Source: Candidatus Nealsonbacteria bacterium
Lineage (GTDB): Bacteria > Patescibacteriota > Minisyncoccia > Minisyncoccales > JANBVM01
DNA: 64,000 bases
Assembly: GCA_047456295.1 (NCBI GenBank)
Contig: CP179887.1
Span: 45,944 to 109,943, forward strand
Direction of reading: 5' to 3'
In this document: positions 11,965 through 60,026 of the stretch, in pieces
How positions within the stretch are numbered: the stretch's first letter is position 1
How the letters are laid out: each line of letters begins with the position of its first letter
Made by a program: the position numbers and the translations under genes
The notes under the pieces: model-generated
What the model was told of the DNA's origin: nothing
What the model saw: the letters and a program-made list of their open reading frames with translations, nothing else
The model's database searches: none

Positions 11965-11988
11965 GAGTTATATTGGGCAGGTAAGCTA

Positions 11989-12017: not shown

Positions 12018-12023
12018 TTAAAT

Positions 12024-12227
12024 ATGATAGGAAATAAGAAAACTGGAATAAGTGCCGATCGGTTCAAAGAGTTACAAGAATTGGCTGGCAAAATCCAGAA
12101 GATAAAGAAAAACCTGATTAGTCGCAGTCCTCAATTATCAACAGAGGAGGCGGCGCAGGTTGAGAGATTTTTCGAGCCGTTGTTAAAATCTCTTGCCAAA
12201 GTGTTAAATGGTGTTAAAAATAACTAA
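12024..12227 (+). CDS. Small hypothetical protein (67 aa)
   Basis: ORF placed exactly at the predicted TSS of a consensus promoter. No motif recognised. Confidence 0.4.
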   Translation: MIGNKKTGISADRFKELQELAGKIQKIKKNLISRSPQLSTEEAAQVERFFEPLLKSLAKVLNGVKNN

Positions 12228-12275
12228 ATCCTATTTTTTTTATTTTTTATTTATTGTTCTTTACAATCAATCCTA

Positions 12276-12313
12276 TTTTTCAAGCCCATAACTTACTTGT
12301 GATTTTGAAAAAG
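12276..12313 (+). repeat. Motif X copy 1 (TTTTTCAAGCCCATAA-N-TGTGnTTTTGAAAAAG)
   Basis: Second copy at 30465-30504 in the same relative position: after a small ORF that follows a tRNA-Asp 3' sequence. Confidence 0.6.
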
Positions 12314-12317
12314 CCCG

Positions 12318-12340
12318 AAACCACCTTTGAGGTGGTTTTT
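12318..12340 (+). terminator. Intrinsic terminator
   Basis: AAACCACC-TTTGA-GGTGGTTT hairpin followed by a T-run. Confidence 0.7.
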
Positions 12341-12425
12341 GGTTTAGGCAGGAAAGTAGTCGAGAAAGCTATCTATTTTCTCCATCATTTCTTCAGGATT
12401 CTCTATAGAATCAAGCCATTCCAGA

Positions 12426-12499
12426 GTTCGAAAATAGTCTCGTCGTCCCCGCCACAATAAGAAATCGCCTTTTAGGTGATTTTTTTGTAGAATAGGAAT
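12426..12499 (+). repeat. Junction module J1: tRNA-Asp 3'-end-like fragment, hairpin with T-run, -10 box
   Basis: GTTCGAaaataGTCTCGTCGTCCCCGCCA compared with the genuine tRNA-Asp 3' end. Then ATCGCCT-TTT-AGGTGAT hairpin, T7, and TAGAAT 6 nt before the ATG at 12500. Confidence 0.7.
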
Positions 12500-13471: not shown

Positions 13472-13508
13472 AATCGCCAAGCAGGCAGTTTCTTGGTAGG
13501 ATGGAAAT
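13472..13508 (+). repeat. Junction module J2 (degenerate)
   Basis: AAATCGCCAAGCAGGCAG...TAGGAT-GGAAAT-ATG. Same frame as J1 and J3-J5, with a decayed hairpin. Confidence 0.5.
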
Positions 13509-13922
13509 ATGAAAAAAATCTTATTTGTCTATTTAGGTAATGTTGCCAGAAGCCAGATGGCTGAGGCATATTATAATCATTTTACAAATTCCAACAATGC
13601 AACAAGTGCTGGCATTTTAGATTTTACTCCAGTAAGATACGGTTATCCTATAAAAGAAGTTGTTCGGGCGATGAAAGAAGAAAGTATAGACGTATCCAAA
13701 AATAAAGTCAAAACCATAACAAGAGAGATGGTAAAAGAAAATGATAAGATTTTTGTTATGTGTAAGAAAGAAGAATGTCCTAACTTTCTATTGAATTCTG
13801 GTAAAGTTACTTTTTGGAATGTTGGTGACCCTTTTGATACAGATTTAGAAAATTTCAGAAGAATTAGGGATAAAATTAGGGGGAAAGTAGAACAACTGAT
13901 TACAGAAAAAAGAATTAATTAA
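13509..13922 (+). CDS. LMW phosphotyrosine phosphatase / ArsC-fold protein lacking the catalytic cysteine
   Basis: P-loop region reads VYLGNVARS where the family has VCxGNxCRS. The DP general-acid motif (VGDPF) is retained. Confidence 0.65.
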   Translation: MKKILFVYLGNVARSQMAEAYYNHFTNSNNATSAGILDFTPVRYGYPIKEVVRAMKEESIDVSKNKVKTITREMVKENDKIFVMCKKEECPNFLLNSGKVTFWNVGDPFDTDLENFRRIRDKIRGKVEQLITEKRIN

Positions 13923-14191
13923 TATTTAATCATTCAATTATTGCGATACGCGGAAAATTATTCCAAAACCAAGTTTTAATTATATCCAACCATCCCCGCC
14001 AAATTGTAATTCAAAGAATCAAGGTTCTGAGGAGCGGTAGCGACGAATGGTTCTTATAAAATTGGATGTAATTAGATATAATTCGAGCTTTTTGTTCGGA
14101 TTTTTTTCACAAAATTACACAAAATTAGTTTGATATTTTTTTAAAATTTGTTACACTAAATTTAGGCCTCCTCGAATTTAGTGAAAATTTT

Positions 14192-14764
14192 ATGAAACAA
14201 AAAGAAGTATTATTTATTACGGGCAATAAAAGTAAATTAGCTGAGACAACTAAGATGGCTGAAAGATTCTCAGTAAAGATAGTAGGGCAAAAAGCTAATT
14301 TATTTGAGCCAATGGTATCCGATTCTACTAAAATCTTAATTGACAAAGCAAAGGATGCATATAAAAAGTTTGGTAAGCCTTTAATCGTTGATGATGCTGG
14401 TATTTACTTTGGAGCTTATCCTAATTTTCCTGGTGTATTCACGAAATTTATTATTAAGTTGCTTGGTTTTAATGGAATCATTAAGTTATTAGAAGGAAAA
14501 AGCAAAGACGCTTACTTCAAGTGCACAATTGGTTTTATTGACGAAAAGTTAGACCAGCCTCTTTTATTTGAAGGTATATCTAAGGGGAAAATAACCGAGA
14601 AAATTTCGATAAACTTCAATGGAAATTTCGAATTTAATAGTATTTTTATTCCTGAGGGAGAAAGTAAAACTTTTTCAGAAATGTCAATTGAGGAACGTAG
14701 TAAACACTGTCATAGAGATAGAGCGTTAGAGAAATTTTTAAGTTGGTATGTTAAAGAATATTAG
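14192..14764 (+). CDS. Ham1/RdgB-family non-canonical (d)NTP pyrophosphatase
   Basis: Family motifs ITGNKSKLAE, DDAGIYF, PGVFTKF and SKHCHRDRAL. Confidence 0.75.
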   Translation: MKQKEVLFITGNKSKLAETTKMAERFSVKIVGQKANLFEPMVSDSTKILIDKAKDAYKKFGKPLIVDDAGIYFGAYPNFPGVFTKFIIKLLGFNGIIKLLEGKSKDAYFKCTIGFIDEKLDQPLLFEGISKGKITEKISINFNGNFEFNSIFIPEGESKTFSEMSIEERSKHCHRDRALEKFLSWYVKEY

Positions 14765-14769
14765 TAAAA

Positions 14770-15396
14770 ATGAAATATATTAAAAAGGAAACAATTGGGG
14801 CGAGTTGGTTAAAAGCAGTAGAGGTGGTTATGGAAGAAGGAAACGATTTTTATGATCGCGATGTTAAGATAAAGGAGTTACTTGATCTTTTCATTGAGAT
14901 AAAAGATGCTCTTCTAATTGACGACGTGATAAAGAAACATGGAGATAAGTATATGATAGAACAACTAAAAATAGTTTTATTGGATACAAAACCAGGTGAG
15001 TGGGGGTGGAGTTATGGACAAAGGTTGTTTGGAGATAGTAACTATTTTAACCAAATAGAATTTATTGTAAATAAATTAAAGAGGAAACCGGAAACAAAAT
15101 CAGCTACCGTAACTTGTTTATTTCCTAAGGAGGATTTTCAGAAGGGAGCTCACATTCCATGTATTTGTCTTTTGGATTTTAAAATTAGAGATAATAGGTT
15201 GAACATGAGTGTTTGTTTAAGAAGCCAAGATATTGCTAAAAAGATGTATGGGGATGCGCTTGCTTTAGGTAAACTCATGGAAAAAGTAGCTAACGAATTA
15301 GATGTCTTGACGGGTAATCTTAAACTGTACATTATGTCGGCTCATATTTATGAAAACGAGTTTGAGAAAATGAGAAAAATAATAGGAAACTCTTAA
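14770..15396 (+). CDS. Short thymidylate-synthase-like protein 1 (Asp at the ThyA Asn177 position)
   Basis: IPC(131)ICLL...CLR(151)SQD(154)...YGD(162)...SAHIYENE. Spacing matches E. coli ThyA C146/R166/D169/N177/H207-Y209. Confidence 0.7.
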   Translation: MKYIKKETIGASWLKAVEVVMEEGNDFYDRDVKIKELLDLFIEIKDALLIDDVIKKHGDKYMIEQLKIVLLDTKPGEWGWSYGQRLFGDSNYFNQIEFIVNKLKRKPETKSATVTCLFPKEDFQKGAHIPCICLLDFKIRDNRLNMSVCLRSQDIAKKMYGDALALGKLMEKVANELDVLTGNLKLYIMSAHIYENEFEKMRKIIGNS

Positions 15397-15585
15397 AATA
15401 AATAAATTCACCATAAACATTCTGATAGTGATAAGCTTACTATAATAAGTTTATTTTTTTTATTGTTGAGCAATCCTGAAATAATATGGGTCTTGATAAT
15501 TCAAAGAAATACTGTATTATATGAATAGCTATAAGATATATTTCCAATAGCAAAGTTCTTTATAACTTAAAAGAGGTGAAATGAG

Positions 15586-16152
15586 ATAAAAGTTATATAT
15601 GTAGGAGGAGTTAAGGGTGTTGGTAAAACCTTTGTCCTTCGTGAGGTCTTTAGGCAACTATCTTTAGAAAAAGTGCCTTTTAAGAAGGCAAAAGTTGCAA
15701 AAGTTATGTTTGATCTATTAAAAAGATACGGTATGGTTGAGAAGTATGATGAGTTAGAAAATATTAGTGTCGAAATAAAAGATTGTATTCGCAAAGAATC
15801 TTTCAAAAAAATACTGAAAGATAAAAATGAAAATTTGATTTTCGATGGCCATTATTCAATATCGTCACAGTTTGGTTATGAGTATGGAATTCCATTGAAT
15901 TTTATAAAAGAAATTGATCACTTAGTATTATTATATAACAATGAAGATGTTGTTCGCAGGAGAAGGTTAGAAGATAAATCTAAAAAAAGAGAGACAAGTT
16001 TAGAGAAAGTAATAATAGACTTAATAATAGAGGAAGCGTTTGCTGAGTTTTATGCGAGATTACGGGGTAGAAAGTTAAAGAAGATAGAAACTAATAATAA
16101 AGCCAGTGTCAGTTTAAAAGATTTTATAAAGGAGGTGTTTGAAAGTGGTTAG
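15586..16152 (+). CDS. P-loop nucleoside/nucleotide kinase-like protein (archaeal Adk-like); apparent ATA start
   Basis: An in-frame Walker A (GGVKGVGKT) lies upstream of the GTG at 15673 given in the ORF track. Between the TGA at 15577 and the P-loop the only start-like codon is ATA at 15586, 7 nt after the SD AAGAGGTGA. Confidence 0.55.
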   Translation: MKVIYVGGVKGVGKTFVLREVFRQLSLEKVPFKKAKVAKVMFDLLKRYGMVEKYDELENISVEIKDCIRKESFKKILKDKNENLIFDGHYSISSQFGYEYGIPLNFIKEIDHLVLLYNNEDVVRRRRLEDKSKKRETSLEKVIIDLIIEEAFAEFYARLRGRKLKKIETNNKASVSLKDFIKEVFESG

Positions 16153-16789
16153 ATTAATAGAAGCAGATAATATTTCAGAAGCATGGTTAAAGGGATGTGA
16201 ATGTATTATAAATTACGGCTTTAGAACGAAAAGAAAAATCAAACTCCATAATTTGATTGCTGAGATTAAAAATATAACTCTAGATAAATACATAGATGAG
16301 CAATTTAGAAATTATATGAATCTAAGAATATTCAAGCGAACATTGGATATCGTTTCTTCAGATCAAAACCTCAATTCACATCCTAATTATTGGAGACGCT
16401 TGAAAGGAAAGGAAGAATTTAAGATAGACCAAGTGGCCCGCGTTATTTCCAGACTTAGAAAGCAGCCTCATTCAACCAAGCTTACCTTATGTATTTACAG
16501 CCCTAACGATTTCAAAAAGATGTATACACCTTGTATTTTATGTGCTGAATTAAGAGTGAATAAGAGGCGTCTTAATATGACCGCTTTTATCAGAAGTCAA
16601 GATTTCGCAAATAAAAGTTATGCTGATTATATAGGTTTATCATCTATTCTTAAACGAATTGGAGAGAATAGTAACATAAAACCAGGAGCAATTCTTACTC
16701 ATACTATAACCGCATTTATTGCCTATAAAGACCTAAGCCGAATGAAATCCTTTTTAAATATCATAAGGGAAAAGAAAATATCAAATTAG
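16139..16789 (+). CDS. Short thymidylate-synthase-like protein 2 (Asp at the Asn177 position; HxY motif lost)
   Basis: TPC(132)ILCA...IR(152)SQD(155)...YAD(163). The C-terminal motif is TAFIAY instead of xAHIY. Start is TTG 16139 or GTG 16145, after the SD AAGGAGGTG, and overlaps the kinase stop. Confidence 0.65.
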   Translation: MKVVRLIEADNISEAWLKGCECIINYGFRTKRKIKLHNLIAEIKNITLDKYIDEQFRNYMNLRIFKRTLDIVSSDQNLNSHPNYWRRLKGKEEFKIDQVARVISRLRKQPHSTKLTLCIYSPNDFKKMYTPCILCAELRVNKRRLNMTAFIRSQDFANKSYADYIGLSSILKRIGENSNIKPGAILTHTITAFIAYKDLSRMKSFLNIIREKKISN

Positions 16790-16863
16790 TTATATGCACC
16801 AGCACCAGTTTATAATGTAAACTTATAAACTGGATTTTTTATATAAGCTAAGAAATACAATAG

Positions 16864-17106
16864 TACTTATATGAAGGAGAAAAAGACAATAAATTCATCC
16901 AGGTTTTAGTTAAAGATTCAGACATAGGTTTGGACAGGAAAGACAAAAACAATCTTTTTAAGCTCTTCCATAGGGGAGAAAAAGCCACTTCTTTGTATCT
17001 TAACGGCTTAGGTTTAGGGCTCTTTATTGTTAAAAACCTGATCGAATTCCACAAGGGCGCGGTTAAAACTAAAAGCGAGGAGGGGAGAGAAGTACCTTTA
17101 TCATAA
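16864..17106 (+). pseudogene. C-terminal fragment of a sensor histidine kinase (HATPase_c G1/G2 boxes)
   Basis: Start-less frame reads ...VKDSDIGLDRKDKNNLFKLFHRGE...LNGLGLGLFIVKNLIEFHKGAVKTKSEEGREVPLS*. It is preceded by an in-frame TAG. Confidence 0.7.
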
Positions 17107-17145
17107 AAATACCTTTCATGGTAGAGGTTTAAGAGGATAATCCTT

Positions 17146-17226
17146 CCAGAATTCATTTCTAACCATGCTTAACCATTCTCGTCACACTAAGTCGCATTTG
17201 AAGTGATTTTTTGATAGAATCGAAAT
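17146..17226 (+). repeat. Junction module J3 (degenerate tRNA-Asp-3'-like segment plus TGATAGAAT -10)
   Basis: CCAGAATTC...TCTCGTCACAC parallels CCAGAGTTCGA...TCTCGTCGTCCCC in J1. TTTTTTGATAGAAT-CGAAAT-ATG follows. Confidence 0.55.
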
Positions 17227-17254
17227 ATGAAAAAAGATTTAAGATTATCAAGAT

Positions 17255-18250
17255 ATGGATTTAGCTCTTCTTAAAAAAATTCTTGTAAAAGAACCATCTT
17301 TTCGTTTAAGGCAAGCGAAAAGAGCTATATTTAGAGACTTGATTGAAGATTGGTCAGGAGTTACAACCTTCCCTTTGTCTTTACGAGAAAAATTGAAAGA
17401 AAAATATCCTTTAAAAATTCAAGCTAAAACTTTTACCTCTAGAGACAAAAGAACAGTCAAAGCTGTTATTAATTTAAAAGACAATTTGAAAATTGAAACA
17501 GTTTTAATGCGCCATAAGAATAAGAGAAATACTGTTTGTGTTTCATCTCAGGTTGGCTGTGCTTTAGGTTGTATCTTTTGTGCTACTGGAAAGGCTGGTT
17601 TCAAAAGAAATCTTGAGGCTTTTGAAATTGTAGAACAGGTTTTATTTTTTGCTCGTTATTTAAAAAAAGAGAAACAAAAGATTACCAATATTGTCTTTAT
17701 GGGAATGGGAGAACCTTTTTTAAATTATGATAGTGTTTTGAACGCTATTAAAGTCCTAAACGATAAAGAAGGATTTAATTTGGGAGCAAGACGATTTTCA
17801 ATCTCTACTGTAGGAATTATAGAGGGTATTAAAAAATTGGCTGAAGAAAAACTTGAAGTGAATTTGGCAATTTCTCTTCATGCACCTGATGATACCCTGC
17901 GTTCAAAAATTATACCAATTAATAGAAAATATCCTCTTTCAAAAGTTTTAAAAGCAGTTGATGAGTATATTAAAAAGACTCGGCGTAGAGTAATGTTTGA
18001 ATACATAATGATAAAAGGATTAAATGATTCAGATGAGTATGCGAAAAAATTAGCAGAATTAATGAAGAAAAGAGAGCTTTCTTTTGTGAACCTTATTTCT
18101 TACAATCCCACAGGAATTTTTAAACCCTCTCTGAGTACAAGAATAAAAAAATTCAAAGATATTTTAGAAAAAGCAGGAATAGCCGTTACTCAGAGATATC
18201 GTTTTGGACAAGATATTAAGGGGGCTTGTGGTCAGCTAGCAGCTAAATAA
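17255..18250 (+). CDS. rlmN: Radical-SAM 23S rRNA/tRNA adenine-C2 methyltransferase
   Basis: CALGCIFCATG radical-SAM motif, GMGEPFLNY, and the C-terminal catalytic Cys in GACGQL. Confidence 0.9.
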   Translation: MDLALLKKILVKEPSFRLRQAKRAIFRDLIEDWSGVTTFPLSLREKLKEKYPLKIQAKTFTSRDKRTVKAVINLKDNLKIETVLMRHKNKRNTVCVSSQVGCALGCIFCATGKAGFKRNLEAFEIVEQVLFFARYLKKEKQKITNIVFMGMGEPFLNYDSVLNAIKVLNDKEGFNLGARRFSISTVGIIEGIKKLAEEKLEVNLAISLHAPDDTLRSKIIPINRKYPLSKVLKAVDEYIKKTRRRVMFEYIMIKGLNDSDEYAKKLAELMKKRELSFVNLISYNPTGIFKPSLSTRIKKFKDILEKAGIAVTQRYRFGQDIKGACGQLAAK

Positions 18251-18465
18251 GTTTATTAATTAAAGATCAGATTAACCAATAAAAAAATCAAAAATCTGAC
18301 CAAGAGATATAGAGATAACTAATACTGCTAATTTTAGTCTTTCTGAAGAGTTTTTTTCTTAAGACCATAAGACAGTTTTTGTTTAGGTGGCTGACTTCAT
18401 CGTCCATCCGTTATTATAAGTAATTTATCAGGTTTTTTTCAAAATCCACCTAACTAAAATTCTAA

Positions 18466-18512
18466 AATCGTTTCGTAGTCCCCGAATACCACTGCCCAGC
18501 GGGGACATTTTT
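18466..18512 (+). repeat. Junction-like relic J7 (tRNA-3'-like segment plus hairpin with T-run)
   Basis: TTCTAAAATCGTTTCGTAGTCCCCGAA resembles J6. GTCCCCG-N15-CGGGGAC stem is followed by ATTTTT. Confidence 0.45.
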
Positions 18513-18715
18513 GTTTTAAGTTGTTGAATAATTCTCCCAAAACCAATTTCCAATACATTTAATTCTCTCTCTTTTCGTAAGTTAAAGTTGGTTTTGGTAG
18601 GTGGGGACCTTAAAAATACCAAATAATGGGTATTTTTCATCTTAATTTATTATTTTTTATTCACACCCTTGAGCTTGATTTTACCTTAATTTTAAGCTAA
18701 AATGAATATGAGATT

Positions 18716-29871: not shown

Positions 29872-29909
29872 GAATAAAAAACTTAATATTAGGGAATTAA
29901 GTTTTAGGA

Positions 29910-29933
29910 GTTCGAATCTCGTCGTCCCCACCA
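29910..29933 (+). repeat. tRNA-Asp 3'-end fragment with CCA (att-like relic)
   Basis: GTTCGAaTCTCGTCGTCCCCaCCA compared with the genuine GTTCGAgTCTCGTCGTCCCCg at 11913-11934. No 5' half of a tRNA lies upstream. Confidence 0.75.
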
Positions 29934-53313: not shown

Positions 53314-54027
53314 ATGTCAAACCCAATAGTTAAATTAGAAAATGTTTGGAAAGTTTATCAGTTAGGCAAGGTTGAATTAACAGCTTTAAAAGGAGTAAGC
53401 CTCGATGTGAGTCGAGGTGCTTTTGTAAGTATTATGGGTACTTCAGGTTCTGGTAAATCAACTCTTTTAAACATGATAGGATGTTTAGATACTCCAACTA
53501 AAGGTAAAGTTTTTTTAAAGGGAAAAGATGTTTCAAAACTAACAGAAGATCAATTGTCTCAATTAAGGGGGAAAATCATTGGCTTTGTATTTCAGGAATT
53601 TAATTTAATGCCTCATTTAACAGCTCTTGAGAATGTAATGCTGCCCATGGTTTTTCAAGGTATATCACTAAAACAAAGAAAAGAAAAAGCAAAAGCACTT
53701 TTAGTGTCTGTAGGTTTAGAAAAAAGAATTTCCCATCAGCCAGCTGAACTTTCAGGTGGTGAAAGACAGAGAGTAGCTATAGCCAGAGCTTTTGCTAATG
53801 ATCCAGAACTTGTTATTGCTGATGAGCCAACAGGTAATTTAGATTCAATTACTGGTAAAAAGATAATGGATCTTTTAAAGAAATTCCATCAAAAACAAGA
53901 AAAAACCATTATTGTTGTGACCCATGATCCTAATATTGCTGGTTACAGTAAGAATATTTTTAATATTAAAGATGGTGAAATTATTGTTAATCATCAAAAA
54001 GCATCTAAAGTATTATGGGAGAAATAA
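53314..54027 (+). CDS. MacB/LolD-type ABC transporter ATPase
   Basis: Walker [10 protein letters not shown], signature LSGGERQR and Walker [12 protein letters not shown]. Confidence 0.9.
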
Positions 54028-55238
54028 AAGAATATATTTATATTGGTATTAGAAATCTTAAGACCAGATCTTTAAGAAGTTGGTTAACTATTTTTGGTAT
54101 TGTTATCGGAGTTTTTTTAATCATTAGTTTGCTTTCTTTGTCTGAAGGCATTAAAAATAGTATTACTCAACAATTAAGATCTTTGGGAGGAGAAATGGTT
54201 TTTGTTATACCTGGTGATGTTTCCAATCCTTTTATGGCTATGATGGGAAGTGAAAAATTAGAAAAAGAAGATATAGATATTATTAAAAAAACAAAAGGAG
54301 TAGATCGAGTGCTTACTACCTCATACACAAGCACTATTATGAGGCATGAAGATGAAAGCAAGCAAATTCTTTTAATGGGTGTTGCCTGGGAAGATAGAGA
54401 TGTTTTAGAAAACTATCAGGGTTGGAATTTAGCTGAAGGACAATGGCCTGTTGCTGGCAAAAGAGAAGTTGTAATTGGTCAACAAGTAGCTCATGAAATA
54501 TTTGAAAGAGAGATTGAAGTTGATTCAGAGGCAGTAATTAAAGGCAGAACTTTCAAAATAGTTGGTGTTTTAAATTCTTTAGGAAGCAGAATGGATGATA
54601 GCGGTGTTTATATAGACATACCAATTTATCAGGGTTTAACTGGAGAAAAAAGAGGAAGTGCTCAAATGGCAATGGTTAAAATTGAAGAAGGTGCTCCTCT
54701 AGATGAAACAGCTGATAATATTAGGGAGAATTTACAAAAAACAAGAAAAAGAAGAGCTGGAACTGATGAAGCTGACTTTAGCGTTATTACTTCAGATACC
54801 ATCGGTGATATTGCAGGTAACATATTAGCTGTTATTCAATTAGCCATCATGGCTTTCGCTAGTATTGCTATTATTGTTGGAGGTATTGGAATAATGAATA
54901 CAATGTTTACTTCAGTTAGAGAAAGAACTAAAGAAATAGGGGTTATGAAAGCTGTAGGCGCTAAAAATTCAGCAGTATTATCTATTTTCCTAACTGAAGC
55001 TGCAGTTATTGGTTTGATTGGTGGAATAGGAGGAACATTTTTAGGTGCTATTTTTGCAAAGTTTATTGAGCTTTATGGGCAGCTTCACCCCATGTTTTAT
55101 TTTAAAGCCTCTGTAAGTCCTGAATTAGTTATTTTTGGCTTGTTTTTTTCTTTTTTAGTTGGTTGTTTGTCAGGATTTTTTCCAGCTAGAAAAGCAGCTA
55201 GCTTGAAACCAGTTGAGGCCCTGAGAAGACTTGAATAA
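54015..55238 (+). CDS. FtsX/MacB-type ABC transporter permease
   Basis: MacB_PCD periplasmic domain between TM1 and TM2, and a C-terminal FtsX region (RTKEIGVMKAVGA). Confidence 0.85.
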   Translation: MGEIKEYIYIGIRNLKTRSLRSWLTIFGIVIGVFLIISLLSLSEGIKNSITQQLRSLGGEMVFVIPGDVSNPFMAMMGSEKLEKEDIDIIKKTKGVDRVLTTSYTSTIMRHEDESKQILLMGVAWEDRDVLENYQGWNLAEGQWPVAGKREVVIGQQVAHEIFEREIEVDSEAVIKGRTFKIVGVLNSLGSRMDDSGVYIDIPIYQGLTGEKRGSAQMAMVKIEEGAPLDETADNIRENLQKTRKRRAGTDEADFSVITSDTIGDIAGNILAVIQLAIMAFASIAIIVGGIGIMNTMFTSVRERTKEIGVMKAVGAKNSAVLSIFLTEAAVIGLIGGIGGTFLGAIFAKFIELYGQLHPMFYFKASVSPELVIFGLFFSFLVGCLSGFFPARKAASLKPVEALRRLE

Positions 55239-55291
55239 AGTGTTTAATGTATTATAAAATAAAAAAAGGATTAATTTAAATCTTTAAAATT

Positions 55292-55594
55292 ATGACTTAT
55301 TTAATATTAGGTGCAGGTTTTTTAGGAGGAGTAGTGAGGGGATTAATGGGATTCGTAAAACACCAGTTTTCATATAAAAACGTGCCTTTTAAATTAGGGT
55401 ATTTTTTAACAATGGTTTTTCTGTCTGGCGTGATCGGGTTTTTATCAGTTTGTGCAGTTAAAAATACTGGTTTTACCTTAGAGGGAGTGTTTAGTCCAGC
55501 TTTAAGTTTTATTGTAGGTTATGCAGGAGGTGATTTTATAGAGAATATTTATAAAATCATTATTAAAAAATCATCATTGTATTCTGAAAAATAA
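55292..55594 (+). CDS. Small membrane protein (100 aa)
   Basis: Three predicted TM helices. No motif recognised. Confidence 0.45.
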   Translation: MTYLILGAGFLGGVVRGLMGFVKHQFSYKNVPFKLGYFLTMVFLSGVIGFLSVCAVKNTGFTLEGVFSPALSFIVGYAGGDFIENIYKIIIKKSSLYSEK

Positions 55595-55610
55595 TTGCTT
55601 TTTAGCTTTA

Positions 55611-56048
55611 TTATTTTTCCTCTGTCCACTTTTTTGCCTTTTCCACAGTAGGAAATAATTCTACTTCTATTGATGGTTTGTTTAACTTTAAGAAAAACGA
55701 ACCAATTATTCTTGCCATTGGATTTTTATAAACTAACGCAACTTTTTTTCTAACATGTTTCGCAATCTCTGGACTTTCATTAACAAATCTTCTTGCTTCC
55801 AGACTTACTTTTTCTATCTCTGAAATATCTACAATTATTCCTCGTCTTTGGAGATTCTTCGTTATTTTAATTCCTGCTTCAGTTATTCGTTCTACTTCTT
55901 CTTTGTCTATTTTCCCCCACATTCTTATCATCATTATATTGTCTTCAATCCAAGTTTCGCTACTCCTTGTTTTAATTGATTCTTTTTTCATATTTTTATA
56001 AATCCGTTTGACTGTTTTCATTTCGACATCTTTAATAACGACAAACAA
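55611..56048 (-). CDS. Hypothetical protein (possibly STAS/SpoIIAA-like fold)
   Basis: 145-aa ORF on the opposite strand to its neighbours. Only weak fold-level resemblance. Confidence 0.4.
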   Translation of the reverse strand: MFVVIKDVEMKTVKRIYKNMKKESIKTRSSETWIEDNIMMIRMWGKIDKEEVERITEAGIKITKNLQRRGIIVDISEIEKVSLEARRFVNESPEIAKHVRKKVALVYKNPMARIIGSFFLKLNKPSIEVELFPTVEKAKKWTEEK

Positions 56049-56085
56049 TTAATTTTAAAAAATCTTCCTTTTAAAGAAAGGAAAA

Positions 56086-56160
56086 GTTCGAGTCCTACTA
56101 CCGGAGCAAATTAAGTTCAAAAATCGCCAATCAGGCGGTTTTTTGATAAAATGAACTATA
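56086..56160 (+). repeat. Junction module J4
   Basis: AGTTCGAGTCCTACTACCGGAGCA (tRNA-3'-like), then AAATCGCCAATCAGGCGGTTTTTTGATAAAAT, with the ATG 8 nt after the -10. Confidence 0.7.
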
Positions 56161-56577
56161 ATGACAAGAAGAATTGCTATTTTTGCCCCTTCTGGAGTTG
56201 GTAAATCAACACTAATTAAGATTGCCTTAAAACAAGGGATAAAGGCTTATGATTTTGAAGATTTCTCTTCTCAAGAAAGAATAAAAAAAGCTCAAGAAAT
56301 TCTCAAGAAGGATTTTAATGACATTGTATTGTTTAATGCGGGAGATTTACAAACTAAAGATTTCCCGTTTGATGTTGAACTGGTATTGCTTTTACCTCCT
56401 AAAGATATTTATTTGAAGCGTTTAAAAAAGCGCGACAAATTAAATCCAGAGAAAAAAGGCCAACAAGGGAATATGAAGTATGAGATATTTTTTTAAAAAA
56501 AGAACATTTTTCATAGAATTATTAAAGATACAGGAACAGCGGATGAAATTTTAGATAAGATATTAAAAAGTTTATGA
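56161..56577 (+). pseudogene. P-loop kinase-like gene, frameshifted/decayed copy of 57269-57685
   Basis: The first 95 aa align with the paralogue (RRIAIFxPxGVGKSTLIK). The frame breaks after NPEKKGQQ near an A/T homopolymer. The C-terminal FHRIIKDTGTADEILDKILKSL* resumes in another frame and ends in ATGA overlap with ppa. Confidence 0.6.
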
Positions 56578-57044
56578 ACATAAAAGTTTTTATTGAGAAT
56601 AAAGCAGGGTCTAATCAAAAAAATATCTATGATGAAAAAACCTTGCAATATAAGAAAACTGTAATAATCTCAAGGAAATATCCATATCCCTATGGTTTCG
56701 TTTTGAATACCACAAGTGGGGATGGTGATAATGTAGATTGTTTTGTGTTAACAAACAAAAAACTTAAAACTGGTGAAATCGTTGAGTGTAAACCTATTGC
56801 CATGATGGAGCAAATAGAGTCTTATTCTGCAGAGCCAGGAATAGAGGAAGAAGACCACAATGTCTTAGCTGTTTTAGAGGGTGAAAGTTTTGAAATAGAC
56901 GATATATTAAAGAATAAACTGTCTGAATTTGTTTCACATGCCTTTGACCATTTACCAGATAAAAAAGTTAAAGTAGGAAATTTCTTAGATGAAAAAAAGA
57001 CTATAGAGTATATAGAAAAATGTAGAGATGCTATTAATCTTTAA
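56574..57044 (+). CDS. ppa: Family I inorganic pyrophosphatase
   Basis: YPYPYGFVLNTTSGDGDNVDCFVL active-site motif. Confidence 0.8.
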   Translation: MNIKVFIENKAGSNQKNIYDEKTLQYKKTVIISRKYPYPYGFVLNTTSGDGDNVDCFVLTNKKLKTGEIVECKPIAMMEQIESYSAEPGIEEEDHNVLAVLEGESFEIDDILKNKLSEFVSHAFDHLPDKKVKVGNFLDEKKTIEYIEKCRDAINL

Positions 57045-57158
57045 ATTCAGGTTCGAACATTATCCTATTAAATTAGGTTAATCCTTGAAATAGTCTTTAA
57101 ATCTCTAAGCTTTTTCTCAATTTCTATCCAATCAATAGTTCTAAATTGGTAAATTTTC

Positions 57159-57268
57159 CCAAAACCAAGTTCTAATATTGTACCACCCCCGGAGCAGGCT
57201 AGTGCTCGGTTCAAGTGACCGAGACGCATCAAATCGCCTTATAGGCGGTTTTTTGGTAAAATCGAAAT
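57159..57268 (+). repeat. Junction module J5
   Basis: CCCAAAACCAAGTTCTAAT...CCCCCGGAGCA, then hairpin CTCGGT-TCAAGTG-ACCGAG, then AAATCGCCTTATAGGCGGTTTTTTGGTAAAAT-CGAAAT-ATG. Confidence 0.7.
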
Positions 57269-57685
57269 ATGAAAAGAAGAATTGCCATCTTTGGTCCTCC
57301 TGGTGTTGGTAAGTCAACCCTAATTAAGCTCGCTATAAAAAGAGGAATAAAGGCCTTTGATTTCGAAGATTTTCCTGAGGAAGAAACATTAAGGCGAGTC
57401 AAAGAAATCTTCAAAAAAGTTCCTGATGACATTGTATTGTATGGTGCGGCTGGCTTACAGACTTATGATTTCCCACAGGATGTAGAACTGGTGTTGGTTC
57501 TGCCACCTAAAGATATTTATTTAGAGCGTATAAAGGAGCGGGATACAGTAAATCCAGCTAAAGTAGGCCAGAACCATTTGGAATGGTATGATGGCTATAC
57601 AAGTACTAAGAATCGTTATCATAAAGTTATTAGTGAGACAGGAAGTCCCAATGAAGTTTTAGATAAAATATTAGAAGATTTATGA
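57269..57685 (+). CDS. Small P-loop kinase-like protein (138 aa)
   Basis: Walker A GPPGVGKST. ATGA overlap with the downstream S66 peptidase gene. Confidence 0.6.
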   Translation: MKRRIAIFGPPGVGKSTLIKLAIKRGIKAFDFEDFPEEETLRRVKEIFKKVPDDIVLYGAAGLQTYDFPQDVELVLVLPPKDIYLERIKERDTVNPAKVGQNHLEWYDGYTSTKNRYHKVISETGSPNEVLDKILEDL

Positions 57686-58653
57686 AAAGTGTTACCCCAT
57701 CAAAACTTAGAAAAGGAGATGAGATAAGAGTCATAGCTCCTGCTAAAAGTTTCAAGACCTCCTTCACAGAAGAGAGAATGGCAACCGCAATGAAAAGGTT
57801 TGAAGAAATGGGTCTGAAAGTTAGTTTTGGAAAACATGTCTACGAACGGAATGAATTTGAATCCACAACTATTGAACATCGACTAGAAGATTTACATGAT
57901 GCTTTTTCAGACAACAACGTAAAAGGGATTTTAACTGTTCTTGGAGGTACCCATTCCAATCAGCTTTTGAAGTATATAGATTACGACCTCATCAGTAATA
58001 ATCCTAAAATCTTATGCGGACTATCGGACATCACTTCCTTGGCAAATGCAATACATGCTAAAACAGGACTGGTGACATATTCTGGACCACACTTCACGTT
58101 GTTTGGTGTAAATAAAGCAATTGACTATACTGTCGATTATTTTAAGCAATGTTTTTTTACAAACGAATCAATAGACGTACAAGCTTCGGAGCATTTTTGT
58201 AATGATAGATGGGACAGTGAAGAAATTCCAAACGATGGAATGTGGCTCATCAATCGTGGTGAAGCTCAAGGAAAAGTTCTCGGCGGTAATATGGTCACTT
58301 TCAATCTTCTGCAAGGGAGTGAATACTTTCCTGATATCTCTGATTCAATCATCTTTGTGGAAGACAACGCAAAAGAAAGTATTCGCGCCTTTGAAAATCA
58401 CTTACAATCACTTATCAACCAACCAAATTTTTCCAAAGTGATAGGGTTAGTAATTGGCAGGTTTCAAGAAGGTACTGGAATGACAAAAAAGTTACTTACA
58501 CAAATCGTTCAAACAAAAAAAGAATTTAACAATTTACCTGTTATTGCAAATGTGGATTTTGGACATACAATCCCAATGATTACTTTCCCCATCGGAGGCG
58601 AATGCAAAATTGCAGCAAAGGACGATCCTAGGATTAAGATAACCAAACACTAA
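57682..58653 (+). CDS. S66-family LD-carboxypeptidase / MccF-like serine peptidase
   Basis: LRKGDEIRVIAPA start, nucleophile elbow CGLSDITSL and C-terminal DFGHT motif. Confidence 0.75.
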   Translation: MKSVTPSKLRKGDEIRVIAPAKSFKTSFTEERMATAMKRFEEMGLKVSFGKHVYERNEFESTTIEHRLEDLHDAFSDNNVKGILTVLGGTHSNQLLKYIDYDLISNNPKILCGLSDITSLANAIHAKTGLVTYSGPHFTLFGVNKAIDYTVDYFKQCFFTNESIDVQASEHFCNDRWDSEEIPNDGMWLINRGEAQGKVLGGNMVTFNLLQGSEYFPDISDSIIFVEDNAKESIRAFENHLQSLINQPNFSKVIGLVIGRFQEGTGMTKKLLTQIVQTKKEFNNLPVIANVDFGHTIPMITFPIGGECKIAAKDDPRIKITKH

Positions 58654-58832
58654 TTATGGACAAAATGAAACAAGAAAGCACGGTCAATTTGATTATATAA
58701 AAAGCATTGGATGCTACCTAGACAGTGTGTGAACCGACATCAATATCCTTGTATAGTTCAAGAACGCGTACCGATGCAGCAAGCGGAAGCGATTGAAATT
58801 TTAAAGACTATTTTATCTAAAGACCATTAAAA

Positions 58833-58989
58833 CAGGTTCTAACCTCGTCCAGCCCCCGGAGTCAGCTTGTGCTCGGTTCGAGGGACCGAGACACTTTCGG
58901 TTCGAATCCTAACCCCACAGATGGTAAAATCAAGCTTGAAAGAAGCTTGCTTTTTTATTAAATTTAGGGAAAGGTTAAAATAGTGACTT
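58833..58989 (+). repeat. Composite junction region (two tRNA-3'-like segments, shared hairpin, terminator, -10 box)
   Basis: CAGGTTCTAACCTCGTCCAGCCCCCGGAG; CTCGGT-TCGAGGG-ACCGAG; GGTTCGAATCCTAACCCCACA; TGGTAAAATC; CAAGCTT-GAAAG-AAGCTTG followed by T6; TAAAAT 8 nt before the ATG at 58990. Confidence 0.6.
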
Positions 58990-59925
58990 ATGGAGATAAA
59001 AAACACAAAACCATCTTTTCGTTGTGTGTTACATGGAAGTTTCCGCAAATACTGGGATTTAATTAAAAGAACACATCGTATCTTTACTGAAGCCGGTATA
59101 GAAGTTTTGGCGCCTCGTGAAACAGAAATAACTTCTTCTACAGAAGGCTTCGCATTTTTAGAAGGTGAAGAAGATAAAGACCCTCGGATGGTTGAGTTGC
59201 TATATCTGCATAATCTTAAACGATTAGGGGAAAACGGTTTTAGTTATTTTGTAGATCCAGAAGGATACATAGGCAAAAGTGCATCTTATGAACTTGGCAT
59301 TGCACAAGTTACAAATATAAGGTGCTTCTTCTTCGATACCCCAAGGGACCACCCAGCTTATATTCATAGAAATGCTATTTGGAAACCTGAAAACCTCACT
59401 ACATTTATACGAGAGAAAGGAAGATTACCTGAGCCTCAAGTAGAGCCGGACAAACAAAAGATTCATAAGCTTTGGGAAGATTTAATGGTACCTGGTTCTG
59501 TAGTAGCTGCGGGAGGCATTATTGAGTATGACTCTGATAAAAAAGAGAAAGAAATTCTTTTAGTAAAGACTCATAAGTGGAAAGGACGATATTCGATTGT
59601 GGGGGGTAAGCTTCGCAGAAATGAAAGACTTGAAGATGCTTTACTTAGAGAAGTTAAAGAAGAAACAGGATTGGTAGGAAGGGTTGGAGAACATCTTTGC
59701 ACTTTTGACCAGATAAAAAACTCTGGTTATTACTTGCCTGGAATACAACATATTTTTGTTGATAATGTAGTTCATGTTAGAAGTAAACACGTTCGTTTGA
59801 ATGAAGAAGCAGAAGATTATATTTGGATACCAGCACGAATTGCGCTTCGTGAACTTTCAATAGAACCAAATGCTCGTCATACACTTCAATTATATGCTGA
59901 CAGCTTTTCTGTGTTAAGTAACTGA
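58990..59925 (+). CDS. Fusion protein: nucleoside 2-deoxyribosyltransferase/DNPH1-like N-domain plus Nudix hydrolase C-domain
   Basis: N-domain GKSASYELGIA resembles the NDT-family catalytic Glu motif. C-domain has the Nudix box GGKLRRNERLEDALLREVKEETGL. Confidence 0.6.
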   Translation: MEIKNTKPSFRCVLHGSFRKYWDLIKRTHRIFTEAGIEVLAPRETEITSSTEGFAFLEGEEDKDPRMVELLYLHNLKRLGENGFSYFVDPEGYIGKSASYELGIAQVTNIRCFFFDTPRDHPAYIHRNAIWKPENLTTFIREKGRLPEPQVEPDKQKIHKLWEDLMVPGSVVAAGGIIEYDSDKKEKEILLVKTHKWKGRYSIVGGKLRRNERLEDALLREVKEETGLVGRVGEHLCTFDQIKNSGYYLPGIQHIFVDNVVHVRSKHVRLNEEAEDYIWIPARIALRELSIEPNARHTLQLYADSFSVLSN

Positions 59926-59934
59926 TTTATAAGA

Positions 59935-60026
59935 CAGGTTCTAAAATCGTTCGTCCTTCGGAGCTAAAAAATCGCTAAATAGGCGATTTTTTGATAAAAT
60001 AAACAATATAAGTAAAAAATATTAAT
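59935..60026 (+). repeat. Junction module J6
   Basis: CAGGTTCTAAAATCGTTCGTCCTTCGGAGC followed by AAATCGCTAAATAGGCGATTTTTTGATAAAAT. Confidence 0.65.

What the first reader, a model, noticed from the sequence alone, without database searches (positions are those of the whole stretch)
56086..60026. Recurring junction module delimiting accessory gene cassettes
The unit AAATCGCC-N4-AGGCG(G/A)TTTTTTG(A/G)TA(A/G)AAT occurs at about 12460, 17195 (degenerate), 56133, 57231 and 59967. Decayed versions lie at 13472 and 58921. Pairwise identity among J4, J5 and J6 is about 26-27 of 32 nt, which is far above chance. Most copies are preceded by a sequence resembling the T-loop and acceptor 3' strand of a tRNA. 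J5 and the 58.8-kb junction also share an extra hairpin, CTCGGT-N7-ACCGAG. Each module sits in front of a different accessory gene: glycosylase-like, PTP-like, rlmN, kinase/ppa, kinase/MccF-like and pcm. This looks like serial integration at tRNA-type att sites, or like a portable terminator-promoter cassette boundary. The module does not resemble integron attC sites.
Basis: seen in the sequence. Interest (0 to 1): 0.7.

Follow-up and report, generated by a model that had tools for sequence, protein, structure and literature searches.

The report
Serine-integrase scars plus shared terminator-promoter module
The repeated junctions are real and have two parts: a terminator-plus-promoter unit found across Patescibacteria (tiny uncultured bacteria), and tRNA-like scars left by serine-integrase mobile elements, which together mark two strain-specific gene islands.

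Summary
The 32-nt unit AAATCGCC-N4-GGCGRTTTTTTKRTARAAT occurs 4 times exactly and 2-3 times degenerately in the window, against 0.02 expected by chance.

The organism is a Patescibacteria (Parcubacteria/Nealsonbacteria-like) bacterium. The same unit occurs in more than 118 stretches of other Patescibacteria genomes.

It reads as a GC hairpin with a T-run (intrinsic terminator) fused to an extended -10 promoter. A start codon usually follows 6-8 nt later, which implies leaderless mRNA. It precedes core genes (obg, rsgA) as well as accessory genes, so the unit itself is generic punctuation and not an att site.

The tRNA-like sequences upstream are the informative part. Read antisense, they encode the extreme C-terminal tail of large serine recombinases. 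They are exactly 5 nt longer than the matching tRNA segment (27 versus 22 nt), which is the published attP-versus-attB half-site geometry.

All window copies lie in two islands absent from relatives. One sits directly after tRNA-Asp. The other arrived inside a 6.7-kb block replaced by homologous recombination.

No recombinase gene remains in the window. Serial, cassette-by-cassette integration is not shown.

The parts
11860..11935 (+). Intact tRNA-Asp (GTC). It forms the left border of island A (attB/attL side).
   Evidence: ARAGORN and Rfam.
11936..18650 (+). Island A, about 6.7 kb, between tRNA-Asp and the pheS promoter. Genes: 67-aa ORF, HhH-GPD-like, LMW-PTP, Ham1, two ThyA-like, AAA_17 kinase, an unannotated 102-aa minus-strand ORF, radical SAM.
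   Evidence: Absent from the syntenic complete Nealsonbacteria genome L123, where tRNA-Asp is followed by pheS within about 200 nt. Pfam.
12424..12454 (+). J1 tRNA-like piece: tRNA-Asp 3' end with a 5-nt insertion in the T-loop, plus CCA. Antisense it reads WRGRRDYFRTLEW.
   Evidence: Sequence comparison with 11908-11935. Hit by the recombinase-tail HMM at E=0.027, second best of 3052 six-frame ORFs.
12462..12493 (+). J1 module: hairpin, T-run and TGTAGAAT. ATG at 12500.
13471..13502 (+). J2 module (decayed hairpin, TGGTAGGAT). ATG at 13509 (LMW-PTP).
13971..14001 (+). Decayed piece (AAGTTTTAATTATATCCAACCATCCCCGCCA) with an Asp-like tail plus CCA.
   Evidence: Read. Resembles the J5 piece. Not scored statistically.
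17189..17220 (+). J3 degenerate module (AAGTCGCA..AAGTGATTTTTTGATAGAAT) in front of the radical-SAM gene.
   Evidence: The fold is weak (z = -0.7).
18456..18487 (+). Piece that closes island A (AAAATTCTAAAATCGTTTCGTAGTCCCCGAAT). Its tail and next 3 nt are identical to the tRNA-Asp 3' end and its flank (GTCCCCGAAT).
   Evidence: It is conserved at about 98% identity in the close relative L122.
29906..29933 (+). Isolated tRNA-Asp 3' fragment with a normal T-loop and CCA, followed by a terminator and a TTGACA promoter.
53314..60021 (+). Block replaced relative to the close relative. It comprises divergent ABC-ATPase, MacB and 100-aa alleles (66.5% identity against 92-95% in the flanks) plus island B.
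   Evidence: blastn of the window against L001.
55596..60021 (+). Island B, 4.4 kb: DUF7793 (minus strand), kinase pseudogene + ppa, kinase + LD-carboxypeptidase, NUDIX fusion.
   Evidence: Absent from L001, L002 and L003, where the 100-aa gene is followed directly by pcm. Pfam.
56086..56108 (+). J4 tRNA-Asn 3' fragment with a normal T-loop (GTTCGAGTCCTACTACCGGAGCA).
   Evidence: (compare the tRNA-Asn genes of L006 and L032).
56121..56152 (+). J4 module. ATG at 56161.
   Evidence: Fold -12.7 kcal/mol, z = -4.4.
57050..57065 (+). Piece core directly after the ppa stop codon.
   Evidence: The 82%-identical ppa of L068 carries a piece at the same place.
57071..57238 (-). Antisense stop-to-stop frame over the J5 junction (no consistent start codon; not a gene). 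It contains the recombinase-tail remnant ...QFRTIDWIEIEKKLRDL...
   Evidence: Best hit of the recombinase-tail HMM in the window, E = 1.7e-4. Also.
57168..57196 (+). J5 piece (attP-type half-site with an Asn-like tail CCCCCGGAGCA). Antisense it reads LLRGWYNIRTW.
57197..57230 (+). Hairpin 1 (GGCTAGTGCTCGGTTCAAGTGACCGAGACGCATC). Probably a remnant of the P' half-site, that is, of recombinase coding sequence.
   Evidence: (D15). The P' assignment is an inference.
57231..57262 (+). J5 module. ATG at 57269.
58835..58862 (+). J5b piece. Antisense it reads *LRGLDEVRTCFN.
   Evidence: The tail type matches P0342, P0345 and P0287.
58863..58893 (+). J5b hairpin 1.
   Evidence: D15.
58897..58918 (+). 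tRNA-Gln 3' fragment with a normal T-loop.
   Evidence: compare the tRNA-Gln of L008.
58922..58956 (+). TGGTAAAAT -10 box followed by a separate terminator-like hairpin.
59937..59964 (+). J6 piece. Antisense it reads *LRRTNDFRTCLI.
59969..60000 (+). J6 module in front of pcm (ATG at 60027). It is absent upstream of pcm in L001 and L003.

Best explanation
Each junction is a composite of two unrelated things.

(1) The module. This is the 32-nt unit AAATCGCC-N4-GGCGRTTTTTT-KRTARAAT. Its GC-cored RNA hairpin and T-run act as an intrinsic terminator for the upstream unit. The T-run also serves as the spacer of an extended -10 (TGnTAnAAT) promoter that needs no -35 box. Transcription would start about 6-8 nt further on, usually at the start codon, giving leaderless mRNA. 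The unit is shared across Patescibacteria and is used before core and accessory genes alike.

(2) The tRNA-like pieces in front of the module. These are attachment-site remnants of integrative elements driven by large serine recombinases (LSR). These elements target the 3' end of tRNA genes (Asn, Gln, Asp; Lys in a relative).
- In this recombinase family the attP site overlaps the last ~13-35 codons of the recombinase gene, on the opposite strand. The conserved Trp codon TGG is the complement of the tRNA CCA.
- The P half-site, called the 'piece' (GGTTCTAACATCGTCC plus an acceptor-like tail), mimics the tRNA half-site but is 5 bp longer.
- Integration leaves attL, which is an intact tRNA followed by the recombinase gene, now ending in ...DSNLRP read from the tRNA. 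It also leaves attR, which is cargo, then the piece, then whatever followed the tRNA (often the module).

In the window the recombinase genes are gone. What remains is cargo genes (nucleotide house-cleaning and repair enzymes) punctuated by pieces, normal tRNA 3' fragments and modules. Island A still sits at its tRNA-Asp. Island B was moved to its present site by homologous recombination, inside a 6.7-kb block.

Shown here: the existence and spread of the module; that the islands vary between relatives; the recombinase-tail homology; the +5 spacing. Inferred: terminator and promoter activity; the position of the crossover; the order of events.
For: Module:
- 9 matches against 0.02 expected in the window.
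- More than 118 stretches in GTDB species genomes, nearly all Patescibacteria.
- None in 2.9 million viral contigs.
- The distance from the -10 box to the start codon peaks at 6-8 nt (41 of 103).
- The hairpins fold at -12.7 to -16 kcal/mol, z = -4.4 to -2.5.
- The same T-run plus TGGTAGAAT also follows unrelated GC hairpins such as CCCGAGA..TCTCGGG, CCATCTC..GAGATGG and ATCGCTC..GAGCGGT. Departures from Watson-Crick pairing are mostly G-U on the + strand.
- Downstream genes span 123 Pfam families and include Obg and RsgA.

Islands:
- L001, L002 and L003 have the 100-aa gene followed directly by pcm.
- blastn against L001 gives 92-95% identity in the flanks, 66.5% for 53314-55575, and nothing for 55596-60021.
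- L123 has tRNA-Asp and then pheS, with no 6.7-kb island.
- L001-L003 carry no module and no convincing piece. The relaxed scan gave two 4-mismatch words at the chance level seen.

Pieces:
- 94 copies against 7 in shuffles across the loci.
- They start 3-60 nt after stop codons.
- Their tails match the local tRNA: Gln in L044, Asp in the window.

Link to the recombinase:
- A profile of the antisense peptides finds only 31-73-aa ORFs with variable N-termini.
- Longer remnants occur in L128 and L129.
- A profile search hits 986 proteins. These include 499-515-aa proteins with Resolvase, Recombinase and Zn_ribbon_recom domains.
- Their tails read ...NWLPxLDAFRTxDW.. or ..NWLWGLDDVRTCLI (piece antisense), or else ...NWLPGQDSNLRP (tRNA antisense).
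- An HMM built from 26 recombinase-linked tails ranks the J5 and J1 antisense frames first and second of 3052 six-frame ORFs in the window (E = 1.7e-4 and 0.027).
- In L133 the recombinase reads into an intact tRNA-Lys. L129 carries the attP-type version with the same P' sequence ATATCAGAACA..GCTT.AAGCAC.

Geometry: the distance from the T-loop word to the discriminator is 22 nt in 30 of 51 real tRNAs and 27 nt in 58 of 73 pieces. Rutherford et al. 2013 (PMC3783163) report that the zinc-ribbon-domain motif lies 5 bp closer to the centre in attB than in attP.

All four half-site combinations occur in front of modules: tRNA+module 11, piece+module 22, tRNA+hairpin 1 2, piece+hairpin 1 at least 3.
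Against: - No recombinase gene or long remnant is present in the window. The link therefore rests on 13-35-codon tails.
- Island B has no tRNA gene at either border. Its present position is explained by homologous recombination, not integration.
- The cassettes are 1-1.7 kb, too small to have carried a 1.5-kb recombinase each. Serine integrases do not normally re-use attL or attR, so the tandem arrays (L075, L044, the window) need extra steps that I could only guess at.
- 141 of 189 module copies have no att-like neighbour.
- A test for attP dyad symmetry gave no clear centre.
- Why the ATCGCC stem sequence itself is so strongly conserved across classes is not explained by terminator function alone.
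- Terminator, promoter and leaderless status have no transcript data behind them.
Confidence: 0.68

Rival explanations
1. Integron-like cassette system. Small circular cassettes without a recombinase each carry a ~60-bp attP (piece + hairpin 1), a promoter module and one to three genes. A serine recombinase encoded elsewhere inserts them one at a time at tRNA 3' ends. The arrays are true cassette arrays.
For: - Dense arrays: L075 has 7 modules and 7 pieces in 8 kb. L044 has tRNA-Gln followed by four gene+piece units in 2.8 kb.
- Junction repeats are homogeneous within a genome and differ between genomes.
- Piece + hairpin 1 looks like a complete attP kept without its recombinase.
- ppa with its piece is found behind different upstream genes in the window and in L068.
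- Intact tRNA+module (an attB-like arrangement) sits at the head of arrays.
Against: - No empty-versus-filled pair differing by one cassette was found among the loci. The indels examined lacked pieces.
- No recombinase family recurs in array-rich loci.
- Island B moved by homologous recombination.
- Serine integrases do not act on attL or attR without a directionality factor (PMC3783163).
- Pieces also flank core genes such as metG and obg.
Confidence: 0.17
2. Pure regulatory punctuation. The whole junction, tRNA-like part included, is just the lineage's usual 3'-UTR, terminator and promoter context, kept similar by selection. The tRNA resemblance and the antisense peptide are incidental.
For: - The module is phylum-wide, precedes core genes, and mostly lacks att-like neighbours.
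- Other hairpins use the same T-run/-10 grammar.
Against: - All window copies fall within the ~11 kb that relatives lack.
- Piece tails follow the local tRNA identity.
- The pieces are exactly +5 nt relative to tRNAs.
- Full-length recombinases end in the antisense of the piece.
Confidence: 0.08
3. The palindrome AAATCGCC-N4-GGCGATTT is the operator of a dimeric transcription factor overlapping the -35 region. On this view the module marks a stress or repair regulon (pcm, NUDIX, glycosylase, Ham1).
For: - The stem sequence is far more conserved than a terminator needs.
- The palindrome spans about -38 to -18 relative to the -10 box. This is my count.
- Several downstream genes are repair or house-cleaning enzymes.
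Against: - Downstream genes span 123 Pfam families with no common theme.
- The loop is free to vary, and mismatches are G-U on one strand only, as expected for RNA.
- Unrelated hairpins occupy the same position.
Confidence: 0.05
4. The module, with or without the piece, is a non-autonomous mobile repeat (MITE, REP or Correia-like), or a DNA-uptake sequence arranged as a terminator pair.
For: High copy number, intergenic location, and built-in promoter and terminator functions resemble Correia elements and DUS-terminators (my knowledge).
Against: - No terminal inverted repeats or target duplications are visible.
- The 8-mer AAATCGCC occurs only inside modules, never dispersed in genes. The uptake-signal reading therefore fails.
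Confidence: 0.02

Closest known systems
Large serine recombinase (serine integrase) attachment sites: attP, attB, attL, attR of the A118/LI, phiC31 and Bxb1 type
   Same: - Relatives encode Resolvase + Recombinase + Zn-ribbon proteins.
- One half-site class is 5 bp longer than the other while sharing motifs, as described for attP versus attB (PMC3783163).
- Hybrid combinations of half-sites are present.
- An excisionase-like HTH_17 gene lies next to the recombinase in L133.
   Different: - The target is the extreme 3' end of tRNA genes.
- attP lies inside the recombinase gene's last codons, so integration swaps the protein's C-terminal tail.
- In the window only scars remain, in tandem, between small cargo operons.
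- The crossover dinucleotide is not identified.
tRNA-linked genomic islands made by tyrosine integrases (P4-like, HPI at asn tRNA)
   Same: - Island A starts at an intact tRNA and ends with a partial direct copy of its 3' end.
- It is absent from relatives and carries accessory cargo.
   Different: - The recombinase footprint is serine-type, not tyrosine-type.
- The distal repeat is not an exact tRNA copy. It is a 5-nt-longer mimic.
- The islands are very small and lack an integrase.
Integron cassette arrays (attC sites; chromosomal integrons with homogeneous repeats such as VCRs)
   Same: Arrays of one- to three-gene cassettes are separated by ~60-130-nt repeats that are homogeneous within a genome. 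Cargo consists of small accessory enzymes.
   Different: - No IntI tyrosine recombinase.
- No R''/L''-L'/R' attC architecture.
- Every junction carries its own promoter and terminator.
- The junction is tRNA-like.
Intrinsic terminators, extended -10 promoters and leaderless mRNAs (as mapped in Actinobacteria and Deinococcus)
   Same: GC hairpin plus T-run; TGnTAnAAT without a -35 box; start codon about 7 nt after the -10 box.
   Different: Terminator and promoter are fused into one 32-nt unit that shares the T-run. The stem sequence is nearly invariant across many classes of one phylum.
Multifunctional intergenic repeats (Neisseria Correia elements, REP/BIME)
   Same: A repeated intergenic unit that supplies promoter and terminator signals to whatever gene lies next to it.
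   Different: No inverted terminal repeats or target duplications. The spread is phylum-wide rather than limited to a genus.

Membership tests
Large serine recombinase attachment site | A gene for a Resolvase + Recombinase + Zn-ribbon protein adjoins or overlaps the site | tested here: inconclusive
   Met in related loci: L133, L131 and L132, and remnants in L128 and L129. Not met in the window, where tblastn with four full-length recombinases finds nothing. Only tail remnants are present.
Large serine recombinase attachment site | attP half-site carries the same motifs as the attB half-site, with the distal motif 5 bp further out | tested here: met
   27 nt in 58 of 73 pieces against 22 nt in 30 of 51 tRNAs, measured from the GGTTC word to the discriminator. 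Same result in alignment A9. The rule is taken from PMC3783163.
Large serine recombinase attachment site | Recombinant attL and attR are hybrids of the B and P half-sites | tested here: met
   tRNA+module, piece+module, tRNA+hairpin 1 and piece+hairpin 1 all occur. L133 (tRNA-Lys + P') and L129 (piece + same P') share the P' sequence. The assignment of hairpin 1 as P' and of the module as B' is an inference.
Large serine recombinase attachment site | Central crossover dinucleotide and imperfect dyad symmetry | tested here: inconclusive
   The symmetry scan found no clear centre. The junction maps at or just 3' of the discriminator/CCA when L129 is compared with L133.
Large serine recombinase attachment site | Recombination activity | not testable with these tools
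   Needs in vitro or in vivo assays.
tRNA-linked genomic island | Bounded by a tRNA gene and a partial repeat of its 3' end, and absent from relatives | tested here: met
   Island A: tRNA-Asp 11860-11935; pieces with Asp tails at 12424-12454 and 18456-18487; absent in L123. Island B has tRNA-like repeats but no tRNA gene, so it does not meet the test.
Intrinsic (Rho-independent) terminator | GC-rich stem-loop immediately followed by a T-run, on the transcribed strand | tested here: met
   Folds. Strand-specific G-U pairs. The actual 3' ends of transcripts were not tested.
Extended -10 promoter driving leaderless mRNA | TGnTAnAAT with the start codon about 6-8 nt downstream | tested here: met
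   (41 of 103 at 6-8 nt). Transcription start sites cannot be tested here.
Integron attC / cassette array | IntI tyrosine recombinase plus attC with paired R/L boxes and extrahelical bases | tested here: not met
   No integrase-type family recurs among 58 array ORFs, and none appears among the window ORFs whose per-gene or top-25 family tables I saw. The junction anatomy differs. No Rfam family matches.
MITE / REP-like repeat | Terminal inverted repeats and target-site duplication | tested here: not met
   None seen around 139 copies.
DNA uptake sequence | A short word strongly over-represented genome-wide, including inside genes | tested here: not met
   AAATCGCC occurs 6 times in 64 kb, all of them in modules.

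The most novel reading that the evidence does not exclude
Patescibacteria may run an integron-like gene-capture system built on a large serine recombinase. Cassettes without a recombinase would each carry a ~60-bp tRNA-mimicking attP and their own terminator/leaderless-promoter module. A recombinase acting in trans would insert them at the 3' ends of tRNA-Asn, Gln and Asp genes. The conserved module would double as the B' arm of the target. This would produce the cassette arrays seen in L075, L044 and the window.
Probability: 0.17. Interest if true: 0.85.

Novelty: new variant of a known kind. Interest (0 to 1): 0.6.

Why it matters
Patescibacteria have tiny genomes and are mostly uncultured. 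How they gain and lose accessory genes, and what their promoters and terminators look like, is largely unknown.

This finding offers three things:
- A compact, phylum-wide terminator/leaderless-promoter part that could be tested directly as a genetic tool.
- A family of serine integrases whose attP is written into the end of their own gene and mimics a tRNA 3' end. The natural half-sites follow the +5-bp attP/attB rule, which makes them candidates for integrase engineering.
- A sequence signature (piece + module) that flags strain-variable islets in metagenome-assembled genomes, where assemblies tend to break.

I found no prior description in four literature searches. That is weak evidence of novelty.

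Tried and rejected
- DNA-uptake-sequence idea. Rejected, because the stem word occurs only inside modules.
- Single-regulon operator. Disfavoured, because the downstream genes are too diverse.
- Antisense 'FRTIDW' as a small protein. Rejected. All 45 database hits are 31-73 aa with non-homologous N-termini. The peptide turned out to be the tail of a recombinase gene.
- My first idea of an SSV-type split tyrosine integrase. Replaced once the serine-recombinase identification was made.
- Rfam. No family matches the junctions, even at E<=1-10.
- Viral contigs. The module has 0 hits. The 17-mer of the piece has 3 hits, which is about chance level. Two lie inside a cytosine-methyltransferase gene. 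One (L125) lies at a contig end with no integrase nearby.
- NCBIfam, and tblastn of the recombinase-tail fragment against phage records: nothing.
- All-against-all comparison of loci, looking for an empty-versus-filled cassette pair. Only indels unrelated to pieces turned up (L037/L090; L026/L032, a tRNA replacement linked to an endonuclease-like ORF that I did not annotate).
- Dyad-symmetry scan of attP candidates: inconclusive.
- An HMM of the conserved recombinase C-terminal region finds nothing in the window, because only the last ~13-35 codons survive there.
- One exact-protein look-up for the window's LD-carboxypeptidase found no source contig.
- The metagenome-contig scan was not used.

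Full report
**1. Checking the observation**

AAATCGCCNNNNAGGCGRTTTTTT with up to 3 mismatches hits 12462, 13471, 56121, 57231 and 59969. Each site is also hit on the opposite strand because it is palindromic. That makes 9 matches against 0.02 expected from shuffles. The degenerate copy at 17189 appears in repeat family D3.

The copy at '58921' retains only the TGGTAAAAT box. The second hairpin CTCGGT-N7-ACCGAG is shared by 57204-57222 and 58871-58889.

Part of the J4/J5 resemblance is a tandem duplication that runs into the downstream P-loop kinase gene: 56161-56460 versus 57269-57568, 75% identical. The first copy is a pseudogene.

Pfam confirms the accessory genes: HhH-GPD-like, LMW-PTP, radical SAM, kinase + pyrophosphatase, kinase + LD-carboxypeptidase, a NUDIX fusion, and pcm.

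**2. Organism and relatives**

The window has 35% GC. It carries bacterial core genes such as trmD, mltG, L10/L12 and gatCAB. MltG and PheS homologues place it in Patescibacteria, close to Nealsonbacteria.

Three sets of relatives were used:
- GCA_030665965.1, a close relative (loci L001 and L122).
- L002/L003, at about 72% protein identity.
- L123, from the complete genome CP179891.1.

**3. The junctions delimit variable DNA**

In L001 and L003 the 100-aa membrane-protein gene is followed directly by pcm, with gaps of 78 and 40 nt and no module.

blastn of L001 against the window gives:

| Window segment | Identity to L001 |
|---|---|
| 46852-53304 | 92-95% |
| 53314-55575 | 66.5% |
| 55596-60021 | no match |
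| from 60022 (5 nt before the pcm ATG) | 95% |

A 6.7-kb block was therefore exchanged by homologous recombination. It consists of divergent transporter alleles plus the 4.4-kb island B.

Island A (11936 to about 18650) lies between tRNA-Asp and the pheS promoter. In L123 those two features are about 200 nt apart.

L001-L003 carry no module and no convincing piece. All six or seven window copies fall inside the roughly 11 kb that relatives lack.

**4. What the module is**

Nearly all are Patescibacteria of many named lineages. Several loci hold 3-5 copies within 8 kb. No copy exists in 2.9 million viral contigs.

- Hairpin: it folds well, at -12.7 to -16 kcal/mol, z down to -4.4.
- Promoter part: TTTTTTG(G/A)TA(G/A)AAT is an extended -10 box. 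The first downstream ORF starts 6-8 nt after it in 41 of 103 cases. That spacing implies leaderless transcripts. A canonical TTGACA-17-TGATATAAT-6-ATG promoter at 12009 shows the same spacing.
- General grammar: when the search is anchored on the promoter part alone, unrelated GC hairpins are found in the same position. Departures from Watson-Crick pairing are G-U on the + strand. The general pattern is therefore a terminator hairpin whose T-run is also the promoter spacer. The ATCGCC stem is simply the commonest version.
- Downstream genes: they span 123 Pfam families and include the core GTPases Obg and RsgA.
- Neighbours: 141 of 189 copies have no tRNA or att-like sequence within 110 nt.

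The module is therefore generic punctuation. It is not an att site and not a regulon operator. The stem word is also not a dispersed uptake signal.

**5. What the tRNA-like parts are**

Two kinds exist.

(a) Plain tRNA 3' fragments with a normal 7-nt T-loop:
- J4 (tRNA-Asn), 56086-56108.
- tRNA-Gln, 58897-58918.
- tRNA-Asp, 29906-29933.

(b) 'Pieces'. These have the consensus AAACA-GGTTCTAACATCGTCC-N7-GGAGC. There are 94 copies in the loci against 7 in shuffles. They start a few nucleotides after stop codons. Their last ~12 nt follow the acceptor strand of a specific tRNA: Asn-like (GGAGC), Gln-like (CCCCAGC) or Asp-like (GTCCCCG). The tail often matches the nearest tRNA gene.

Read on the opposite strand, the pieces and their upstream flank give a conserved peptide, LPLQDAFRTIDWKKIKEEL. 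A profile of it finds only 31-73-aa ORFs with unrelated N-termini, so it is not a small gene.

Two longer ORFs extend into ...ADENYYITANTILSLAKRA...KKQLLNFLLQN..GKKL.F.L..PF.... A full HMMER search with that region found 986 proteins. They include 499-515-aa proteins with Resolvase, Recombinase and Zn_ribbon_recom domains, that is, large serine recombinases.

Their C-termini come in two forms:
- ...SPNWLPxLDAFRTxDW... or ...NWLWGLDDVRTCLI. These are the antisense of the two piece variants.
- ...SPNWLPGQDSNLRP. This is the antisense of a real tRNA T-arm.

The invariant Trp (TGG) is the complement of CCA.

An HMM built only from recombinase-linked tails picks the J5 and J1 antisense frames as the two best of 3052 six-frame ORFs in the window (E = 1.7e-4 and 0.027). 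By eye, J6 reads *LRRTNDFRTCLI and J5b reads *LRGLDEVRTCFN.

**6. Mechanism**

In L133 a 509-aa recombinase sits next to an HTH_17 gene and reads into an intact tRNA-Lys. In L129 a remnant of a related recombinase (67% identical tail) carries a piece joined to the same sequence, ATATCAGAACA..GCTT.AAGCAC.

From this I infer the following assignments:
- The tRNA 3' end is a B half-site.
- The piece is the P half-site.
- The recombinase's penultimate codons are P'.
- The exchange point lies at or just after the discriminator/CCA.

The distance from the GGTTC word to the discriminator is 22 nt in tRNAs and 27 nt in pieces. This is the 5-bp outward shift of the distal (zinc-ribbon domain) motif that distinguishes attP from attB in serine integrases (Rutherford et al. 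2013, PMC3783163).

Integration should therefore give two products:
- attL: an intact tRNA plus the recombinase, now with a 'DSN' tail.
- attR: cargo, then the piece, then the former tRNA flank.

All four half-site combinations are seen in front of modules. Hairpin 1 aligns with the P' coding segment and reads ..RSLEPSTSLLP.. antisense. It is probably a P' remnant, but this is a weak inference.

**7. What is not explained**

- The window has no recombinase gene.
- Island B is not at a tRNA.
- The cassettes are too small to have been autonomous.
- Serine integrases do not re-use attL or attR, so tandem arrays need further steps: deletion of the recombinase, homologous recombination between modules, or recombinase action in trans on cassettes that bear an attP. 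I could not find an empty/filled pair differing by one cassette.
- The near-invariance of the ATCGCC stem is also unexplained. One possibility is that it doubles as the B' arm.

**8. Comparison and novelty**

The closest known systems are serine-integrase att sites and tRNA-linked islands. The arrays resemble chromosomal integrons in layout but fail every integron membership test. The module resembles known extended -10/leaderless promoters fused to an intrinsic terminator.

I rate the finding a new variant of known kinds. The reasons are the tRNA-mimicking attP embedded in the recombinase's own 3' end, the islets made only of scars, and a phylum-wide 32-nt terminator-promoter unit. None of these turned up in my literature searches.

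**9. Verdict**

Confidence in the composite explanation is about 0.68. Interest is 0.6. The integron-like reading remains open at roughly 0.17.

Noticed in passing
window 23390-24968 (inside ORF 21860-25378): gyrB carries an intein (Pfam Intein_splicing; 1172 aa against 641 aa in L123). The 98%-identical relative L122 and L123 both lack it, so it is a strain-variable intein.
   Followed up: partly
L123 9058-9850 (CP179891.1); also L032 about 2100-3350 versus L026 about 6070-6230: In L123 a free-standing LAGLIDADG endonuclease gene and a different tRNA-Asp allele sit directly in front of a 28-nt 3' fragment of the window-type tRNA-Asp. This looks like replacement of a tRNA gene linked to a homing endonuclease. 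L032 shows a similar replacement next to another tRNA, beside an endonuclease-like ORF that I did not annotate.
   Followed up: partly
window 42698-42774 and 46235-46311: A 77-nt direct repeat, 91% identical, covering a promoter-like AT-rich stretch, an ATG and the first ~15 codons. The second copy starts the RNase HII gene. Three minus-strand genes lie between the copies, including a second MltG/YceG paralogue, followed by a 584-nt non-coding stretch.
   Followed up: no
window 12264-12300 and 30467-30505: A repeat TTTTTCAAGCCCATAA...TTTTGAAAAAG occurs twice. Each copy lies a few hundred nt downstream of a tRNA-Asp 3' end copy (11935 and 29933) and a small leaderless ORF. This suggests the tRNA-Asp downstream region has been duplicated.
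   Followed up: no
window 56161-56577: The first P-loop kinase copy is a pseudogene. Its frame breaks near 56490, but similarity to 57269-57685 continues to the ATGA overlap with ppa.
   Followed up: partly
L059 1455-5855: A 2.5-kb tandem duplication of a three-gene unit, with identical piece+module junctions at both ends. This is consistent with unequal recombination between junction repeats.
   Followed up: no
L083 224-508 (minus strand) and 694-2187 (plus strand): A second family of large serine recombinase (497 aa) lies convergent with obg. An inverted duplicate of its last ~90 codons sits just upstream.
   Followed up: no
L001 4236-4769 versus window about 51150: The close relative carries a GrpB-family gene near the tRNA-Tyr/Thr/Trp cluster that the window lacks. 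This is another small strain difference next to tRNA genes.
   Followed up: no
L044 (JAUWXZ010000075.1): A 2.8-kb contig binned as an Aenigmatarchaeota archaeon carries bacterial tRNA-Gln, modules and pieces typical of Patescibacteria, so it is probably mis-binned. The contig ends inside a piece, which suggests these repeats break assemblies.
   Followed up: no
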